In this document: in pieces, positions 21,366 through 45,336 of the stretch
Layout of the letters: every line of letters begins with the position of its first letter
Position numbering within the stretch: position 1 is the stretch's first letter
Assembly: GCF_013167455.1 (NCBI RefSeq)
Contig: NZ_CP038328.1
Origin: Escherichia coli O157:H7
GTDB lineage: Bacteria; Pseudomonadota; Gammaproteobacteria; Enterobacterales; Enterobacteriaceae
Strand: one strand, 5' to 3'
DNA length: 64,000 nucleotides
Position numbers and translations under genes: made by a program
The notes under the pieces: generated by a model
The model's input: the letters and a program-made list of their open reading frames with translations, nothing else
Told to the model about the DNA's origin: nothing
Database searches by the model: none

Positions 21366-21722
21366 TTACTCGAGAGGAAATTGGTTATGAATACAATCAA
21401 GTTTTCTTGCCCAGAATGTGGTGGCGAAGTCTTTGACACATCCTTTAAGCCGCAGGGCTCTGACAGTTTCGCGGGAGCCATCTGCAAAAATTGTGGTCAC
21501 CTTGTAACTGAAGATGAGTCCTCGCAGTTCGATGACGAAATCGTTGACAATATCTTCGGTGCACTCACCAGAGACTTTCTGAAGTAAAGGCGCATACCGC
21601 TTAGTTACCGCTCTGATAACTCTTACCTGTCCTGCAATGGCGCTGATGTCAATATAAAGCGCCATTGCTGCTTCTTTGCCGATCCCGGGATGCCTTCCAT
21701 TCTGATGTTTGACTTCGCCCAC
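21366..21722 (-). CDS. Hypothetical protein, first gene of the leftward early operon (conflicts with a convergent ORF at 21387..21587)
   Basis: GTG start with GAGGG RBS just downstream of the operator-like region at 21903-21958; same orientation as dicB. Confidence 0.3.
   Translation of the reverse strand: MGEVKHQNGRHPGIGKEAAMALYIDISAIAGQVRVIRAVTKRYAPLLQKVSGECTEDIVNDFVIELRGLIFSYKVTTIFADGSRETVRALRLKGCVKDFATTFWARKLDCIHNQFPLE
21387..21587 (+). CDS. Alternative overlapping ORF: 66-aa zinc-ribbon-like protein (CPECGG...CKNCGH)
   Basis: ATG at 21387 with AGAGGAAA RBS 6 nt upstream; two CxxC pairs; antisense to the early operon, so only one of the two overlapping ORFs is likely real. Confidence 0.3.
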   Translation: MNTIKFSCPECGGEVFDTSFKPQGSDSFAGAICKNCGHLVTEDESSQFDDEIVDNIFGALTRDFLK

Positions 21723-21902
21723 TGAGAAACCCTCTGTTTCCCCTTAACGCCGGGGTAGCGGAACAAAAAACTGCTGCATAGTTATTAAAGTTGAACCCTG
21801 CCGTCATGTTCATACGCCTCGGGCTGGCTACTTAACCCCTGACCACTGCCGGGTAACTCGAAGTATTTCCCTGCGTTCTGTGGGGCGGGGTGGGTTGGTA
21901 TT

Positions 21903-21958
21903 TTTAGTTTAATAAACATTAAACTTAAGTCAAGTAAAAACTAAACCGCGGGACATAA
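21903..21958. promoter_or_regulatory. Operator-like cluster (TTTAGT / ACTAAAC half-sites) for the leftward dicB-type early promoter
   Basis: Shares half-site motifs with the repressor-cro intergenic region; lies in a 295-bp ORF-free gap. Confidence 0.4.
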
Positions 21959-22017
21959 CAAACACAACGCTTTTGATAAAGTCGTTGCGGTTGTTATGTT
22001 TCTATTGGTAGTGAAAG

Positions 22018-22296
22018 TTAGGGAAACTGGCGTCTTGCGTGGATCACGTTTACTACTTCAACGCTTGATGTTGTTACGCGGTATAGAATTATATAGTTAG
22101 GGTGGGCTACAATCTCACGCAAGCCAGGTACTCTGTCGCTTGGTGGGTATAAATACGGATGTTCGGATAACGGCAGCACACAACCCCTTAATCGCTGCCA
22201 TAAGCGTTCAGCCGCATCTATGTCGAAACGAGCAATATAACTAGTTATATCATCTAGGTCGGTATCTGCGCTTTCAAGCCATAACACGGGTAACAT
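22018..22296 (-). CDS. ParE/RelE-superfamily type II toxin
   Basis: About 93 aa from MLPVLWLESADTD... to ...EIVAHPNYIILYRVTTSSVEVVNVIHARRQFP, a typical ParE/RelE C-terminus; start overlaps the stop of the upstream small ORF. Confidence 0.6.
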   Translation of the reverse strand: MLPVLWLESADTDLDDITSYIARFDIDAAERLWQRLRGCVLPLSEHPYLYPPSDRVPGLREIVAHPNYIILYRVTTSSVEVVNVIHARRQFP

Positions 22297-22297
22297 T

Positions 22298-22489
22298 TTA
22301 CTGCTTGCTCCGTTCCTTGCGCATCTTAGCAAAGCGTTCTGCCATTCTGCGCTCAACTTCGTCATGGGGAATTGCTGGGCGCGGATCTGCAAGGCTCGTT
22401 GCTACTTTCGCACGCAGCCATTCGTTGTAACTGTTTTCTTGTTCAATGGTTTCAAATTCAGAAACCATTGGTGAAAGGGCTCTATTCAT
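22298..22489 (-). CDS. Putative antitoxin (ParD-like) paired with the ParE-like toxin
   Basis: Small acidic/basic protein MNRALSPMVSEFETIEQENSYNEWLRAKVATSLADPRPAIPHDEVERRMAERFAKMRKE; stop is 1-2 nt from the toxin start. Confidence 0.5.
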   Translation of the reverse strand: MNRALSPMVSEFETIEQENSYNEWLRAKVATSLADPRPAIPHDEVERRMAERFAKMRKERSKQ

Positions 22490-22509
22490 GTTTCCTCCGG
22501 TTTTATAAC

Positions 22510-22881
22510 TCAGGCGCGGCGGCATTTTTGCGCCGCAATCCATCTCGCTATGAGATCTTCCATTGATTCTTTTTTCTGCTTTAACTCGCTGATTATCTGG
22601 CGTTGCTCATCCTCAGGGAAGGCTGAAAAAATCTGCAATAATTCCAGTTGATTAGACGTTAACCCTGCATGTGGTGGAGAACCCCCCGGTTGTTCTGCGT
22701 ATTCCGCATCCAGATACCCTTCCGGCATCCCGTATGTTTGCTCTATTCTTCTGGCAGCCTTTTCTCCAAACGAGGCTCTCCCACTCATTAGTTGAGATAG
22801 GTAGCTCTTCTCTTTGGGTGGCAGAGTTTTATCTTTAAACCACTCCTTGAGACGTAAACGGCGAATTTCTTTTTTTTGCAT
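22510..22881 (-). CDS. dicA: DicA-like (P22 C2 / lambda cI analog) prophage repressor with XRE-type HTH
   Basis: Architecture parallels recalled DicA (C-terminal ...LTSNQLELLQIFSAFPEDEQRQII... vs DicA LSPKELELLELFNALPESEQ); divergent from the cro-like gene. Confidence 0.65.
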   Translation of the reverse strand: MQKKEIRRLRLKEWFKDKTLPPKEKSYLSQLMSGRASFGEKAARRIEQTYGMPEGYLDAEYAEQPGGSPPHAGLTSNQLELLQIFSAFPEDEQRQIISELKQKKESMEDLIARWIAAQKCRRA

Positions 22882-22893
22882 GTGGTAATTATC

Positions 22894-22968
22894 TTTAGTA
22901 ATCACTAAACAAGCAAATACTTGACTTAATGGTTTATTAAACACTAAACTCGCAAAAAAACACTAAAC
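22894..22968. promoter_or_regulatory. Repressor/cro intergenic operator-promoter region with three CACTAAAC-containing sites
   Basis: CACTAAAC at 22903-22910, 22942-22949 and 22961-22968; palindromic TTTAGT-N4-ACTAAA at 22894-22909; TTGACT -35-like hexamer at 22921-22926. Confidence 0.5.
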
Positions 22969-22978
22969 CGAGGAAGGT

Positions 22979-23281
22979 ATGACATTAAAAGAGTTTATTA
23001 AATCATTAAGGGTTGGTGATGCTAAGAAATTCGCGGCCAGACTTGGTGTATCGCCATCTTACTTATCGCAAATGGCGTCTGGACGAACAGCTATATCTCC
23101 AACCCGCGCCCTTATGATCGAATCTGCGACGGAAGGCCAAGTAAGTAGGGCGGAGCTACGACCCCATGATTGGGAGCTTATTTGGCCTGAGTATGCGAGC
23201 GGCATTCGTTTGGGGCAAACACATGTAGTTCATGCTGAAGGTGATTGTAGTGCATGCTTATCTGATGGAGTTGATTCATGA
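22979..23281 (+). CDS. Cro-like (DicC/YdaS-like) HTH regulator
   Basis: N-terminal HTH (ARLGVSPSYLSQMASGRTAISPTRALMIESAT); first rightward gene across from the repressor. Confidence 0.6.
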   Translation: MTLKEFIKSLRVGDAKKFAARLGVSPSYLSQMASGRTAISPTRALMIESATEGQVSRAELRPHDWELIWPEYASGIRLGQTHVVHAEGDCSACLSDGVDS

Positions 23282-23703
23282 AAATCAAGCATGAACACAT
23301 CCGCATGGCGATGAATGTCTGGGCGCATCCGGACGGCGAAAAAGTACCGGCTGCGAAAATTACCAAAGCGTATTTCGAGCTGGGAATGACGTTCCCGGAA
23401 CTGTATGACGACAGCCATCCGGAAGCCCTGGCCCGTAATACCCAGAAAATTTTCCGTTGGCTGGATAAAGACACCCCTGATGCTGTTGAAAAAATGCAGG
23501 CTCTGTTACCGGCGATCGAAAAGGCGATGCCGCCTTTGCTGGTGGCCCGTATGCGCAGCCACAGTTCTGAATATTACCGTGAGATCGTCGAACGGAGGGA
23601 TCGGCTGGTGAAGGATGTCGATGATTTTGTTGCGTCAGCGGTTGTTTTGTATGACCAGATGAATCGCGGCGGCCCGGCAGGGAATGCTGTGGTGATGCAC
23701 TAA
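23278..23703 (+). CDS. YdaT-like / CII-like phage regulatory protein
   Basis: 141-aa protein following cro with ATGA overlap; position and size match Rac YdaT; family assignment from memory. Confidence 0.45.
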   Translation: MKIKHEHIRMAMNVWAHPDGEKVPAAKITKAYFELGMTFPELYDDSHPEALARNTQKIFRWLDKDTPDAVEKMQALLPAIEKAMPPLLVARMRSHSSEYYREIVERRDRLVKDVDDFVASAVVLYDQMNRGGPAGNAVVMH

Positions 23704-25460: not shown

Positions 25461-26230
25461 ATGGAAACTGTATTGCATGCACTGAAAGCGATGGGAAAAG
25501 CCAATTCTGTTGAACTGGCGGCGCGGCTTGATATCAGCCGTGAAGAAGTTCTTAACGAACTGTGGGAACTCAAAAAAATGGCGTTGTTGATAAAACGGGT
25601 CACACCTGGTTTCTGGCTGTCGAAGGTGAAGCCGGGGTAACCGAAGGGCAGGCACTACAACCTGAAGCGCCGGATGTGGTAACCGAAGAGGTCGCTCCAA
25701 AAGTTACCGCAGACATGATGGTTGAGTTTATCGGTCAGGATGGTGCTAAAACGTGTGAGGAACTGGCGGGTAAGTTCGGCGTCAGTACTCGCAAGGTTGC
25801 TTCCACGCTGGCGGTGGTAACCGCAACGGGGCGGCTGGCACGCGTTAATCAGAACGGTAAATTTCGTTACTGCATGTCGGGGGGTAATTTACCAGCAGAT
25901 CCGAAAGCCGCGCCGGTAACGAAAAATGATGGTAAGGCCTTTCCTCAGCCAGCAGGTGCTGCGTTACCAGTCCGGGAAGCCGCAACACAGGAAGAAATTA
26001 AAACAGAAACTGTGGCGGACATTGTGCAGCCGTTGCCATCGTTTACCGAAACGCAAGCAGATGAGCTGATTTTTCCGTCCCTGCGCAGGGCAAACCTGGC
26101 GCTGCGCAGGGCGAAAAGTGATGTTCAGAAGTGGGAGCGAGTCTGCGCCGCGCTGCGGGAGCTGAACAAGCACCGGGATATTGTTCGACAGATTACTGAT
26201 TCTTCCCGCCGTGTTGTATCGGAAAAGTGA
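25461..26230 (+). pseudogene. Hypothetical phage protein interrupted by a frameshift in an A7 run (25573-25579)
   Basis: Frame A (ATG 25461, [39 protein letters not shown]...) stops after 59 codons; frame B continues ...[18 protein letters not shown]... to 26230; one extra A would fuse them. Confidence 0.45.
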
Positions 26231-42613: not shown

Positions 42614-43913
42614 TCTCCCGCATATTGCCAGCATGGCTTTTAATGAGCCGCTGATGCTTGAACCCGCCTATGCGCGGGTTTTCTTTTGTGCGCTTGCAGG
42701 CCAGCTTGGGATCAGCCGCCTGACGGATGCAGTATCCGGCGACAGCCTGACTGCCGGAGAGGCACCCGCGGCGCTGGCGTTATCCGGTGATGATGACGGA
42801 CCACGACAGGCCCGGAGTTATCAGGTCATGAACGGCATCGCCGTGCTGCCGGTGTCCGGTACGCTGGTCAGCCGGACGCGGGCGCTGCAGCCGTATTCGG
42901 GAATGACCGGTTACAACGGCATTATCGCCCGTCTGCAACAGGCTGCCAGCGATCCGATGGTGGACGGCATTCTGCTCGATATGGACACACCGGGCGGGAT
43001 GGTGGCGGGAGCATTTGACTGTGCTGACATCATCGCCCGTGTGCGAGACATAAAACCGGTATGGGCGCTGGCCAACGACATGAACTGCAGTGCAGGTCAG
43101 CTGCTTGCCAGCGCCGCCTCCCGGCGTCTGGTCACGCAGACCGCCCGGACAGGCTCCATCGGCGTCATGATGGCTCACAGTAATTACGGTGCTGCCCTGG
43201 AGAAACAGGGCGTGGAAATCACGCTGATTTACAGCGGCAGCCATAAGGTGGATGGCAACCCCTACAGCCATCTACCGGGTGATGTCCGGGAAACACTGCA
43301 GTCCCGGATGGATGCAACCCGCCGGATGTTTGCGCAGAAGGTGTCGGCATATACCGGCCTGTCCGTGCAGGCTGTGCTGGATACCGAGGCTGCAGTGTAC
43401 AGCGGTCAGGAGGCCATTGATGCCGGACTGGCTGATGAACTTGTCAACAGCACCGATGCGATCACCGTTATGCGTGATGCACTGGATGCACGTAAATCCC
43501 GTCTCTCAGGAGGGCGAATGACCAAAGAGACTCAATCAACAACTGTTTCAGCCACTGCTTCGCAGGCTGACGTTACTGGCGTGGTGCCAGCGACGGAGGG
43601 CGAAAACGCCAGCGCGGCGCAGCCGGACGTGAACGCGCAGATCACCGCTGCGGTTGCGGCAGAAAACAGCCGCATTATGGGGATCCTCAACTGTGAGGAG
43701 GCTCACGGACGCGAAGAACAGGCCCGCGTGCTGGCAGAAACCCCCGGTATGACCGTGGAAACGGCCCGCCGCATTCTGGCCGCAGCACCACAGAGTGCAC
43801 AGGCGCGCAGTGATACTGCGCTGGATCGTCTGATGCAGGGGGCACCGGCACCGCTGGCTGCAGGTAACCCGGCATCTGATGCCGTTAACGATTTGCTGAA
43901 CACACCAGTGTAA
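42594..43913 (+). CDS. C: Head protease/scaffold gpC (Nu3 scaffold encoded in-frame within its 3' part)
   Basis: GTG start; VTAELRNLPHIASMAFNEPLMLEPAYARVFF..., lambda C. Confidence 0.9.
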
Positions 43914-43922
43914 GGGATGTTT

Positions 43923-44255
43923 ATGACGAGCAAAGAAACCTTTACCCATTACCAGCCGCTGGGCAACAGTGACCCGGCTCATACCGCAACCGCGCCCGGC
44001 GGATTGAGTGCGAAAGCGCCTGCAATGACCCCGCTGATGCTGGACACCTCCAGCCGTAAGCTGGTTGCGTGGGATGGCACCACCGACGGTGCTGCCGTTG
44101 GCATTCTTGCGGTTGCTGCTGACCAGACCAGCACCACGCTGACGTTCTACAAGTCCGGCACGTTCCGTTATGAGGATGTGCTCTGGCCGGAGGCTGCCAG
44201 CGACGAGACGAAAAAACGGACCGCGTTTGCCGGAACGGCAATCAGCATCGTTTAA
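43923..44255 (+). CDS. D: Head decoration protein gpD
   Basis: [27 protein letters not shown]..., lambda D. Confidence 0.9.
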
Positions 44256-44310
44256 CCTGACCCTTCATCACTAAAGGCCGCCTGTGCGGCTTTTTTTACG
44301 GGATTTTTTT

Positions 44311-45336
44311 ATGTCGATGTACACAACCGCCCAACTGCTGGCGGCAAATGAGCAGAAATTTAAGTTTGATCCGCTGTTTCTGCGTCTCTTTTTCCGTGAG
44401 AGCTATCCCTTCACCACGGAGAAAGTCTATCTCTCACAAATTCCGGGACTGGTAAACATGGCGCTGTACGTTTCGCCGATTGTTTCTGGTGAGGTTATCC
44501 GTTCCCGTGGCGGCTCCACCTCTGAATTTACGCCGGGATATGTCAAGCCGAAGCATGAAGTGAATCCGCAGATGACCCTGCGTCGCCTGCCGGATGAAGA
44601 TCCGCAGAATCTGGCGGACCCGGCTTACCGCCGCCGTCGCATCATCATGCAGAACATGCGTGACGAAGAGCTGGCCATTGCTCAGGTCGAAGAGATGCAG
44701 GCAGTTTCTGCCGTGCTCAAGGGCAAATACACCATGACCGGTGAAGCCTTCGATCCGGTTGAGGTGGATATGGGCCGCAGTGCGGCGAACAACATCACGC
44801 AGTCCGGCGGCACGGAGTGGAGCAAGCGTGACAAGTCCACGTATGACCCGACCGACGATATCGAAGCCTACGCGCTGAACGCCAGCGGCGTGGTGAATAT
44901 CATCGTGTTTGACCCGAAAGGCTGGGCGCTGTTCCGTTCCTTCAAAGCCGTCAGGGAGAAGCTGGATACCCGTCGCGGCTCTCATTCCGAACTGGAGACA
45001 GCGGTAAAAGACCTGGGCAAAGCGGTGTCTTATAAGGGAATGTATGGCGATGTGGCCATCGTCGTGTATTCCGGACAGTACGTGGAAAACGGCGTCAAAA
45101 AGAACTTCCTGCCGGACAACACGATGGTGCTGGGGAACACTCAGGCACGCGGTCTGCGCACCTATGGCTGCATTCAGGATGCGGACGCACAGCGCGAAGG
45201 CATTAACGCCTCTGCCCGTTACCCGAAAAACTGGGTGACCACCGGCGATCCGGCGCGTGAGTTCACCATGATTCAGTCAGCACCGCTGATGCTGCTGGCT
45301 GACCCTGATGAGTTCGTGTCCGTACAACTGGCGTAA
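44311..45336 (+). CDS. E: Major capsid protein gpE
   Basis: MSMYTTAQLLAANEQKFKFDPLFLRLFFRESYPF..., lambda E. Confidence 0.95.
   Translation: MSMYTTAQLLAANEQKFKFDPLFLRLFFRESYPFTTEKVYLSQIPGLVNMALYVSPIVSGEVIRSRGGSTSEFTPGYVKPKHEVNPQMTLRRLPDEDPQNLADPAYRRRRIIMQNMRDEELAIAQVEEMQAVSAVLKGKYTMTGEAFDPVEVDMGRSAANNITQSGGTEWSKRDKSTYDPTDDIEAYALNASGVVNIIVFDPKGWALFRSFKAVREKLDTRRGSHSELETAVKDLGKAVSYKGMYGDVAIVVYSGQYVENGVKKNFLPDNTMVLGNTQARGLRTYGCIQDADAQREGINASARYPKNWVTTGDPAREFTMIQSAPLMLLADPDEFVSVQLA

What the first reader, a model, noticed from the sequence alone, without database searches (positions are those of the whole stretch)
22018..22944. ParE/ParD-like toxin-antitoxin pair inside the prophage immunity operon
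A ParE/RelE-fold toxin with a tightly coupled upstream antitoxin lies directly downstream of, and co-oriented with, the DicA-like repressor. A second operator-like cluster follows it. This is the position rexAB occupies in lambda, which suggests expression in the lysogen and a possible role in superinfection exclusion or abortive infection as well as prophage stabilisation.
Basis: partly seen in the sequence, partly recalled or inferred. Interest (0 to 1): 0.55.

Follow-up and report, generated by a model that had tools for sequence, protein, structure and literature searches.

The report
Known paaR2-paaA2-parE2 prophage toxin-antitoxin

Summary
Window 22018-22296(-), 22298-22489(-) and 22510-22881(-) encode proteins 100% identical to crystallised ParE2 (5CW7) and PaaA2 (3ZBE), and to the solved N-terminal domain of PaaR2 (7NKV/8C3K). 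The window is E. coli O157:H7 chromosome carrying the defective lambdoid prophage CP-933P/Sp12.

Published work (Hallez 2010, as cited; Jurenas 2021; Prolic-Kalinsek 2023) already shows:
- PaaR2 is a leaderless CI analogue.
- YdaS and YdaT (22979-23703, +) are the Cro and CII analogues.
- The 97-bp OR region carries divergent PRM and PR promoters.
- paaA2-parE2 replace lambda rexA/rexB.
- The operon is transcribed in both immunity states.
- The locus is addictive: it stabilises plasmids.

Corrections:
- The toxin is 92 aa, not 93.
- paaR2 starts at 22881, not 22944.
- The antitoxin belongs to the PaaA2 family, which has no DNA-binding domain. It is not ParD or Phd.

Still open are a rex-like phage-exclusion role, for which I found no test, and the target of ParE2, which is reported not to bind gyrase.

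My own additions are minor: the boundaries of the mosaic immunity cassette, its presence in the isolated coliphage Evi, and a hairpin in the tIMM position. Verdict: already known, low interest.

The parts
22018..22296 (-). parE2: 92-aa ParE-family toxin
   Evidence: 100% identical to PDB 5cw7_B/5cze. Matches Pfam PF05016 ParE_toxin at E 2e-16. RefSeq annotates it as a RelE/ParE family toxin, WP_001303511.1.
22298..22489 (-). paaA2: 63-aa antitoxin of the PaaA2 family (no DNA-binding domain); its stop codon lies 1 nt from the parE2 ATG
   Evidence: Residues 2-63 are identical to PDB 3zbe/5cw7 PaaA2. Matches Pfam PF21217 PaaA2 at E 1e-19 and NCBIfam NF050103 at 84 bits, above the cutoff of 50. 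The sequence was read.
22510..22881 (-). paaR2: 123-aa CI-analogue repressor translated from a leaderless mRNA; first gene of the operon
   Evidence: Residues 1-66 are identical to PDB 7nkv/8c3k 'Phage repressor protein CI', after which the construct's tag begins. Matches phrog_5736 transcriptional regulator at E 7e-39. Its C-terminus matches the DicA model at 28 bits. The MQKKE N-terminus and leaderless start are reported in PMC8630535.
22882..22978 (.). 97-bp OR region with divergent promoters. PRM933P (-) has -35 TTGCTT at 22916..22911 and -10 GATAAT at 22893..22888, with +1 at the A of the paaR2 ATG (22881). PR933P (+) has -35 TTGACT at 22921-22926 and -10 TAAACT at 22945-22950. Operator repeats lie at 22893-22910, 22932-22949 and 22951-22968.
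   Evidence: The 97-bp length equals that given in PMC8630535, which also reports the EMSA and DNase I footprints. PR was found by the promoter scan. The PRM hexamers are my own reading of the sequence.
21899..21950 (-). OL-like operator cluster with the leftward promoter PL933P (-35 TTGACT at 21933..21928, -10 TAAACT at 21911..21906).
   Evidence: Found by the promoter scan. Repeats D1, I1 and I4 link it to OR, and the motif is enriched. PMC8630535 reports that PL933P has the same -35/-10 as PR933P, carries OL1-3, and is repressed about 100-fold by PaaR2 and YdaS.
21953..21999 (-). Long imperfect hairpin 19 nt past the parE2 stop codon and before PL. It is a candidate operon terminator in the position of lambda tIMM (inference).
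   Evidence: Inverted repeat I2 has 22-nt arms at 82% complementarity. The RNA fold gives -25.1 kcal/mol with z -4.35. There is no clean U-tract directly after the stem. PMC8630535 does not contain the word 'terminator'.
22979..23281 (+). ydaS: Cro analogue (100 aa), transcribed divergently from PR933P
   Evidence: Aligns over its full length (residues 1-100, E 1.5e-63) to PDB 8c7k 'Phage antirepressor protein Cro'. Matches phrog_35. Function is described in PMC8630535.
23278..23703 (+). ydaT: CII analogue (141 aa). Its operator OM, TTGATTN6AATCAA, lies at 23271-23288.
   Evidence: Matches PDB 8bt1/3c4r and phrog_163 'CII-like transcriptional activator' at E 3e-47. The operator has a single exact match in the window against 0.01 expected, as described in PMC9986795.

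Best explanation
The finding is the three-component type II toxin-antitoxin operon paaR2-paaA2-parE2. [quoted passage not shown]

Shown by others on these exact sequences:
- PaaR2 is translated from a leaderless PRM-type transcript. It binds repeated operators in the 97-bp OR region and represses PR933P (ydaS-ydaT) and the distal PL933P/OL. At low level it stimulates its own promoter.
- YdaS (Cro analogue) competes for the same sites, which makes the locus bistable.
- YdaT (CII analogue) activates a PRE-type promoter that also reads into the operon.
- PaaA2, an intrinsically disordered 63-aa protein with no DNA-binding domain, wraps around ParE2 and neutralises it in a large hetero-oligomer. 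PaaA2 is degraded by ClpAP and ClpXP.
- If the locus is lost, PaaA2 decays and the stable ParE2 kills or arrests the cell (SOS induction, nucleoid association). The cassette is therefore addictive.

Inferred: the biological role is to stabilise the immunity region or prophage against loss or recombinational replacement. The molecular target of ParE2 remains unidentified.
For: Identity of the proteins:
- ParE2, PaaA2, the PaaR2 N-terminal domain, YdaS and YdaT match PDB entries 5cw7, 3zbe, 7nkv/8c3k, 8c7k and 8bt1 at or near identity.

Identity of the window:
- The 24 kb around the locus aligns end to end at 100.0% reported identity, with one indel, to E. coli O157:H7 chromosomes. The prophage lies next to ynfA and has a frameshifted integrase, a frameshifted portal and other pseudogenes.

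Family assignments:
- ParE_toxin and PaaA2 in Pfam.
- NCBIfam and PHROGs results agree.

DNA anatomy in the window:
- A 97-bp OR region, TTGACT/TAAACT promoters at both OR and OL, and an operator motif enriched and confined to those two clusters.
- The YdaT operator at 23271-23288.

Published experiments:
- PMC8630535 reports 5' RACE, N-terminal sequencing, EMSA and footprinting, GFP reporters for PRM, PR, PL and PRE, bistability, absence of SOS in either state, and mini-F stabilisation.
- PMC9986795 states that parE2 and paaA2 replace rexB and rexA.

Cassette behaviour:
- The whole OL-to-ydaS block (about 21896-23272) is swapped as a unit in phage vB_EcoS-640R1 for a different cI plus dicC with no TA.
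- It is present intact in the isolated coliphage Evi.
Against: Nothing contradicts the identification.

Open points about mechanism:
- ParE2 is reported not to bind GyrA59 and not to inhibit gyrase or translation, so 'ParE = gyrase poison' does not simply transfer.
- Single-cell work detected no ParE2 activity in either transcriptional state.
- Addiction has been shown on plasmids, not for the prophage in situ.
- The stabilising role for the immunity region is the published authors' proposal, not a demonstrated fact.
Confidence: 0.95

Rival explanations
1. Rex-like defence. The main selected function of paaA2-parE2 in the lysogen is abortive infection or exclusion of superinfecting phages. Infection shuts off host transcription or otherwise depletes the labile PaaA2, which frees ParE2 to stop the infected cell. 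This is compatible with the addiction role, not exclusive of it.
For: - The pair occupies the rexA/rexB slot, downstream of the repressor and upstream of OL/PL.
- It is transcribed in both immunity states.
- PaaA2 is a ClpAP/ClpXP substrate.
- The cassette occurs in an isolated temperate coliphage, Evi, and in 685 of 5426 complete E. coli genomes.
- From general knowledge, many type II TA modules and genes adjacent to lambdoid repressors act as anti-phage systems.
Against: - I found no experimental test.
- None of the three proteins matches PADLOC-DB.
- 'Exclusion' and 'abortive' are absent from PMC8630535.
- No listed PaaA2 paper from 2021 onwards appears, from its title and abstract start, to report anti-phage activity.
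- No ParE2 activation was seen under the conditions tested.
Confidence: 0.15
2. ParE2 works like the classical RK2 or Vibrio ParE toxins, by poisoning DNA gyrase.
For: - It has the ParE fold and matches the Pfam family.
- Overexpression induces SOS and the protein colocalises with the nucleoid.
- VcParE2 binds gyrase only in a DNA-dependent manner, so a negative GyrA59 binding assay may not be decisive (abstract).
Against: [quoted passage not shown]
- A review states that it neither binds gyrase nor inhibits protein synthesis, which suggests a third activity.
Confidence: 0.3
3. A canonical two-gene parDE module, autoregulated by its own antitoxin, that merely happens to lie beside a phage repressor.
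For: The toxin belongs to the ParE family, and the antitoxin gene sits immediately upstream with a 1-nt spacer.
Against: - The antitoxin has no ParD, RHH or Phd domain. Its only matches are to the PaaA2 family and to NCBIfam's short RelB-family antitoxin model.
- The literature reports that it lacks DNA-binding motifs.
- I saw no promoter-like site between paaR2 and paaA2 (20-nt gap).
- Regulation by PaaR2, YdaS and YdaT has been shown experimentally.
Confidence: 0.02

Closest known systems
paaR2-paaA2-parE2 of E. coli O157:H7 EDL933 prophage CP-933P, also called Sakai Sp12 (Hallez et al. 2010 as cited in PMC8630535; Jurenas et al. 2021, PMC8630535)
   Same: Everything matches:
- Protein sequences are identical over the solved chains.
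- The DNA matches O157:H7 chromosomes at 100.0% reported identity.
- The OR/OL architecture and the 97-bp intergenic region are the same.
   Different: Nothing substantive differs. In this window, as in strain ECP19-598, the exonuclease gene is intact. Some O157 strains carry IS1203 in that gene or between paaR2 and ydaS.
Lambda immunity region: OL/PL - rexB - rexA - cI - OR - cro - cII
   Same: - The order, orientation and logic are the same: a leaderless repressor, divergent PRM and PR promoters, a distal OL/PL, a Cro analogue, a CII analogue with PRE, and two accessory genes co-transcribed with the repressor.
- A hairpin lies in the tIMM position.
   Different: - The proteins share no sequence relationship with the lambda proteins.
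- PaaR2 lacks the S24 autocleavage domain. There is no Pfam hit, and the literature reports that it does not respond to mitomycin C.
- OR is described as having four equally spaced 18-bp repeats rather than three operators.
- The accessory genes are a TA pair, not RexAB.
Classical ParDE modules (RK2 parDE, Caulobacter ParDE1 3KXE, Vibrio cholerae ParDE2)
   Same: The toxin has the same fold and Pfam family, with weak sequence hits to 3kxe and 6x0a at E about 1e-5. Like them, it stabilises plasmids by post-segregational killing.
   Different: - The antitoxin is from the PaaA2 family and has no DNA-binding domain.
- Regulation is delegated to a third protein, which is the phage repressor.
- Gyrase inhibition is reported to be absent.
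- The complex is a hetero-hexadecamer.
paaR1-paaA1-parE1 of prophage CP-933M, same strain
   Same: It is a homologous three-component module in another lambdoid prophage. O157 genomes show two places for the paaA2-parE2 query.
   Different: It is a different locus and is not in this window. tblastn finds no second copy here.

Membership tests
ParE toxin family (RelE/ParE superfamily) | Sequence match to the ParE profile | tested here: met
   Matches Pfam PF05016 at E 2.1e-16 over the full length, positions 1-89 of 89. The NCBIfam RelE_StbE hit is only 21 bits, below its cutoff.
ParE toxin family (RelE/ParE superfamily) | RelE/ParE fold (two N-terminal helices plus an antiparallel sheet) | tested here: met
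   The sequence is identical to that of the solved structure 5cw7/5cze. The fold is described in PMC5086665.
ParE toxin family (RelE/ParE superfamily) | Poisoning of DNA gyrase | not testable with these tools
   The literature reports no binding to GyrA59 and describes the protein as 'published as not inhibiting gyrase'. SOS induction and nucleoid localisation are reported.
ParD / Phd-YefM antitoxins | N-terminal RHH or Phd/YefM DNA-binding and dimerisation domain | tested here: not met
   The only Pfam hit is PaaA2 PF21217, over residues 16-45. The protein is only 63 aa. The literature reports no DNA-binding motif and intrinsic disorder.
PaaA2 antitoxin family | Profile match and identity to the type member | tested here: met
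   Matches PF21217 at E 1.2e-19 and is identical to PDB 3zbe. NCBIfam NF050103 scores 84.1 bits, above the cutoff of 50.
Three-component paaR-paaA-parE module | Gene order regulator-antitoxin-toxin on one strand with short spacers, and regulation by the first gene | tested here: met
   The order and the spacers of 20 nt and 1 nt come. Regulation is taken from the literature.
Lambda CI-type prophage repressor (functional class) | Leftward gene next to divergent PRM/PR promoters, with repeated operators at OR and a second set at OL | tested here: met
   The operators and promoters were located. Binding and repression are reported in PMC8630535.
Lambda CI-type prophage repressor (functional class) | C-terminal S24/LexA-like autocleavage domain (SOS inducibility) | tested here: not met
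   No Peptidase_S24 or any other significant Pfam domain was found. The literature says the peptidase motif is lacking and that the protein does not respond to mitomycin C.
DicA family repressor | Score above the curated DicA model cutoff | tested here: not met
   NF007257 scores 28.1 bits against a cutoff of 101, and only residues 72-119 match the C-terminal part of the DicA model. A review assigns the DNA-binding domain to the DicA family.
RexAB-like abortive infection / known anti-phage systems | Sequence membership of a known defence family | tested here: not met
   PADLOC-DB gave no match for ParE2, PaaA2 or PaaR2.
RexAB-like abortive infection / known anti-phage systems | Protection of the lysogen from superinfecting phage | not testable with these tools
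   I found no published test.

The most novel reading that the evidence does not exclude
The paaA2-parE2 pair is not only an addiction module. It is also the functional successor of rexAB: a repressor-co-transcribed abortive-infection or exclusion system that protects lysogens of this immunity type, including lysogens of live phages such as Evi, against other phages. It would act through a ParE-fold toxin whose target is not gyrase.
Probability: 0.15. Interest if true: 0.5.

Novelty: already known. Interest (0 to 1): 0.1.

Why it matters
As a discovery it does not matter. The locus has been characterised genetically, biochemically and structurally since 2010, and the rexAB analogy and the OL/PL cluster are both in print.

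Its residual value is as a pointer to two open questions:
- What does ParE2 target? It is reported not to bind gyrase.
- Does a toxin-antitoxin pair co-transcribed with a prophage repressor confer phage exclusion, in addition to locking the immunity cassette in place?

The result also shows that the first-stage reader can recognise an immunity-region architecture from raw sequence.

Tried and rejected
- PADLOC search of all five immunity-region proteins: the only hit was a marginal HTH match for YdaS. There is therefore no sequence-based support for a defence-system assignment.
- Pfam search on PaaR2: nothing was significant, and HTH_31 scored E 0.14. 'DicA-like' rests on a sub-threshold NCBIfam match and on the literature.
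- Search for a second copy of the module (paaR1-paaA1-parE1) in the window by tblastn: none found.
- Python blastn of the window against the phage loci failed because L002 and L003 were not exported to /data. I replaced it with MAFFT alignments of the two junctions.
- Literature searches for an anti-phage test of this module: none found. The mention of PaaA2 in PMC10440598 is only a reference-list entry.
- The promoter scan did not report PRM933P, because its -35 (TTGCTT) matches only 3 of 6 positions. I placed it by hand from the sequence and from the published transcription start.
- The terminator scan did not flag the 21953-21999 hairpin, which is AT-rich and has no adjacent U-tract. It is therefore only a candidate.
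- I considered and rejected three readings: a canonical two-gene parDE module, a decayed remnant, and YdaS/YdaT as a second toxin-antitoxin pair. The remnant reading fails because the proteins are identical to the characterised functional ones and the best match is at least 99% identical in 585 chromosome records. The third was refuted in PMC8630535.

Full report
**1. What is in the sequence**

The minus strand of window 22018-22944 carries three co-oriented ORFs.

- The most downstream ORF, 22018-22296, encodes 92 aa.
- The middle ORF, 22298-22489, encodes 63 aa. Its TAA stop (22300-22298) is separated from the toxin ATG (22296-22294) by a single base.
The biologically used start is the ATG at 22881 (MQKKE..., 123 aa).
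- The upstream ORF ends at 22510, 20 nt before the antitoxin ATG. A GGAGG Shine-Dalgarno sequence precedes that ATG.

**2. Identity**

The three products were compared with PDB chains.

- The toxin is 100% identical to ParE2 (5cw7/5cze).
- Residues 2-63 of the antitoxin are identical to PaaA2 (3zbe/5cw7).
- The repressor is identical over the solved N-terminal domain to the PaaR2 entries deposited as 'Phage repressor protein CI' (7nkv, 8c3k, 8c3l).

The divergent genes to the right, 22979-23281 and 23278-23703, match the solved 'Cro' (8c7k) and YdaT (8bt1, 3c4r) of the same prophage.

The 2-kb region and the 24 kb around it match many E. coli O157:H7 chromosomes at 100.0% reported identity. 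The annotated context shows host genes asr through ynfA, followed by a lambdoid prophage. That prophage has a frameshifted integrase and portal and other pseudogenes. This is the defective prophage called CP-933P in EDL933 and Sp12 in Sakai (PMC8630535).

**3.

- Toxin: Pfam ParE_toxin PF05016, E 2e-16, full length.
- Antitoxin: Pfam PaaA2 PF21217, E 1e-19, and NCBIfam NF050103 'RelB family antitoxin', 84 bits against a cutoff of 50. It is not ParD or Phd/YefM.
- Repressor: no significant Pfam domain. Residues 72-119 match the C-terminal part of the NCBIfam DicA model at 28 bits against a cutoff of 101. It also matches PHROG 5736 'transcriptional regulator'.
- YdaT: falls in the PHROG 'CII-like transcriptional activator' family.
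- PADLOC: recognises none of the three operon proteins.

**4. The DNA signals**

*OR region.* The paaR2 and ydaS start codons are 97 bp apart (22882-22978). This is the length given in PMC8630535.

*Operator repeats.* A 14-mer of the form ANTAANNACTAAAC, allowing one mismatch, occurs 7 times in the 64-kb window against 0.54 expected. Five of the seven hits lie in two clusters, 22897-22968 (OR) and 21911-21946. It lies 72-107 bp beyond the parE2 stop codon. Inverted repeats I1 and I4 link it to OR.

*PR and PL.* Each cluster contains the same promoter-like pair, TTGACT and TAAACT. It points rightward at 22921-22950 (PR) and leftward at 21933-21906 (PL). [quoted passage not shown]

*PRM.* Reading the sequence myself, a weak PRM lies on the minus strand. 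Its -35 is TTGCTT at 22916..22911, followed by a 17-nt spacer and a -10 GATAAT at 22893..22888. This places +1 on the A of the paaR2 ATG, consistent with the published leaderless transcript.

*YdaT operator.* TTGATTN6AATCAA has a single exact match in the window, at 23271-23288 at the ydaS/ydaT junction, as described in PMC9986795.

**5. How it works**

The steps below were shown by others on these exact sequences (PMC8630535).

- *Regulators.* PaaR2 is a CI analogue. It footprints about 78 bp of OR and represses PR933P and PL933P. At low level it stimulates PRM933P. YdaS is the Cro analogue and competes for the same sites. YdaT is the CII analogue and activates a PRE-type promoter that reads into the operon.
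- *State of the locus.* The locus is bistable, and the state is inherited. The TA genes are transcribed in both states without detectable ParE2 activity.
- *Antitoxin.* PaaA2 lacks a DNA-binding domain, is degraded by ClpAP and ClpXP, and neutralises ParE2 in a cooperative hetero-hexadecamer.
- *Stabilisation.* Both the operon alone and the whole ydaST-RAE2 region stabilise an unstable mini-F plasmid as well as ccdAB does.

The authors propose that the TA pair locks the immunity region against loss or recombinational replacement. That step is inference.

The target of ParE2 is unresolved. Overexpression induces SOS and the protein colocalises with the nucleoid. However, it is reported not to bind GyrA59 and not to inhibit gyrase or translation.

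**6.

That includes the statement that parE2 and paaA2 'replace rexB and rexA' (PMC9986795).

Three details need correction:
- the length of the toxin;
- the start of paaR2;
- the family of the antitoxin.

The proposed superinfection-exclusion or abortive-infection role is the one element I could not find tested:
- 'exclusion' and 'abortive' do not occur in PMC8630535;
- none of the listed papers from 2021 onwards that mention PaaA2 appears, from its title and abstract start, to be an anti-phage study of this locus;
- there is no PADLOC match.

That role remains possible but unsupported.

(a) *Cassette boundaries.* Phage vB_EcoS-640R1 shares the left flank up to about window 21895 and the right flank from about 23273, which is the ydaT start. 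Between them it carries a 199-aa cI plus dicC and no TA pair. The exchangeable immunity cassette is therefore about 21896-23272. It runs OL/PL, hairpin, parE2, paaA2, paaR2, OR, ydaS, so the TA pair travels inside it. This is the recombination scenario that the published hypothesis invokes.

(b) *Presence in a live phage.* The same cassette, at 95.6% identity, is present in Escherichia phage Evi (LR597642). Evi is a coliphage isolated from infant faeces. Its parE2 is intact and identical in protein sequence, but the record leaves it unannotated. The module is therefore not confined to dead prophages.

(c) *Distribution.* The paaA2-parE2 segment is present at 80% coverage or more in 685 of 5426 complete E. 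coli genomes. These include an ST131 strain and a canine isolate.

(d) *Hairpin.* A long imperfect hairpin at 21953-21999 lies between the parE2 stop codon and PL. It folds at -25.1 kcal/mol with z -4.35. It is in the position of lambda's tIMM terminator. It lacks an adjacent U-tract, and the paper does not mention it.

**8. Verdict**

The novelty class is 'already known', and interest is low.

The most novel reading still open is a rex-like anti-phage function, exerted through a ParE-fold toxin whose target is not gyrase. I give it a probability of about 0.15.

Noticed in passing
window 21366-21722 (-) and 21387-21587 (+): Two ORFs overlap completely on opposite strands just downstream of PL933P, in the position of lambda N. 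One is a 118-aa minus-strand ORF (phrog_21318, E 4e-67) that is annotated in phages Evi and vB_EcoS-640R1. The other is a 66-aa CxxC plus-strand ORF (NCBIfam ECs_2282 family, 57 bits against a cutoff of 37) that is annotated in RefSeq O157 genomes. The two sets of annotations disagree, and I could not decide which ORF is expressed.
   Followed up: partly
window 21953-21999: A 22-bp-arm imperfect hairpin lies between the parE2 stop codon and the PL/OL cluster (-25.1 kcal/mol, z -4.35). It is a possible tIMM-like terminator, or a bidirectional terminator. The simple terminator scan did not flag it, and the 2021 paper does not mention it.
   Followed up: partly
L005 (E. coli strain 472) 1383-2810, corresponding to window about 22882-22995: In strains 472, AUSMDU00002545 and PNUSAE151637, an IS1203 element sits between paaR2 and ydaS, and the ydaS CDS is shortened to 285 nt. 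The insertion separates ydaS-ydaT from OR/PR and leaves paaR2-paaA2-parE2 intact. In strain TR01 the same IS disrupts the exonuclease gene, which is intact in this window.
   Followed up: partly
window about 21896-23272, compared with L003 (phage vB_EcoS-640R1) and L002 (phage Evi): The boundaries of the mosaic immunity cassette are sharp. Homology with vB_EcoS-640R1 stops just left of OL and resumes at the ydaT start codon. That phage has a 199-aa cI plus dicC and no TA pair in between. Phage Evi has the whole TA-bearing cassette, but parE2 is unannotated in its record.
   Followed up: yes
window about 16526-17208, 25461-26230 and 42623-45207: The integrase, a DUF1627 gene and the portal gene of this prophage are annotated as frameshifted in the near-identical O157:H7 record. 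This fits a defective prophage. The same prophage also carries dicB, ydfD, hokD, rusA, Q, three tRNA genes (Ile, Arg, Arg, about 30669-30918) and a terB-family gene.
   Followed up: no
window 22510-22881 (PaaR2 residues 72-119): The C-terminal segment of PaaR2, which is not in the solved N-terminal-domain structures, is the only part that matches the NCBIfam DicA model (28 bits, model positions 83-130 of 135). This hints that the shared element between PaaR2 and DicA is the C-terminal region, possibly an oligomerisation region, rather than the HTH.
   Followed up: no
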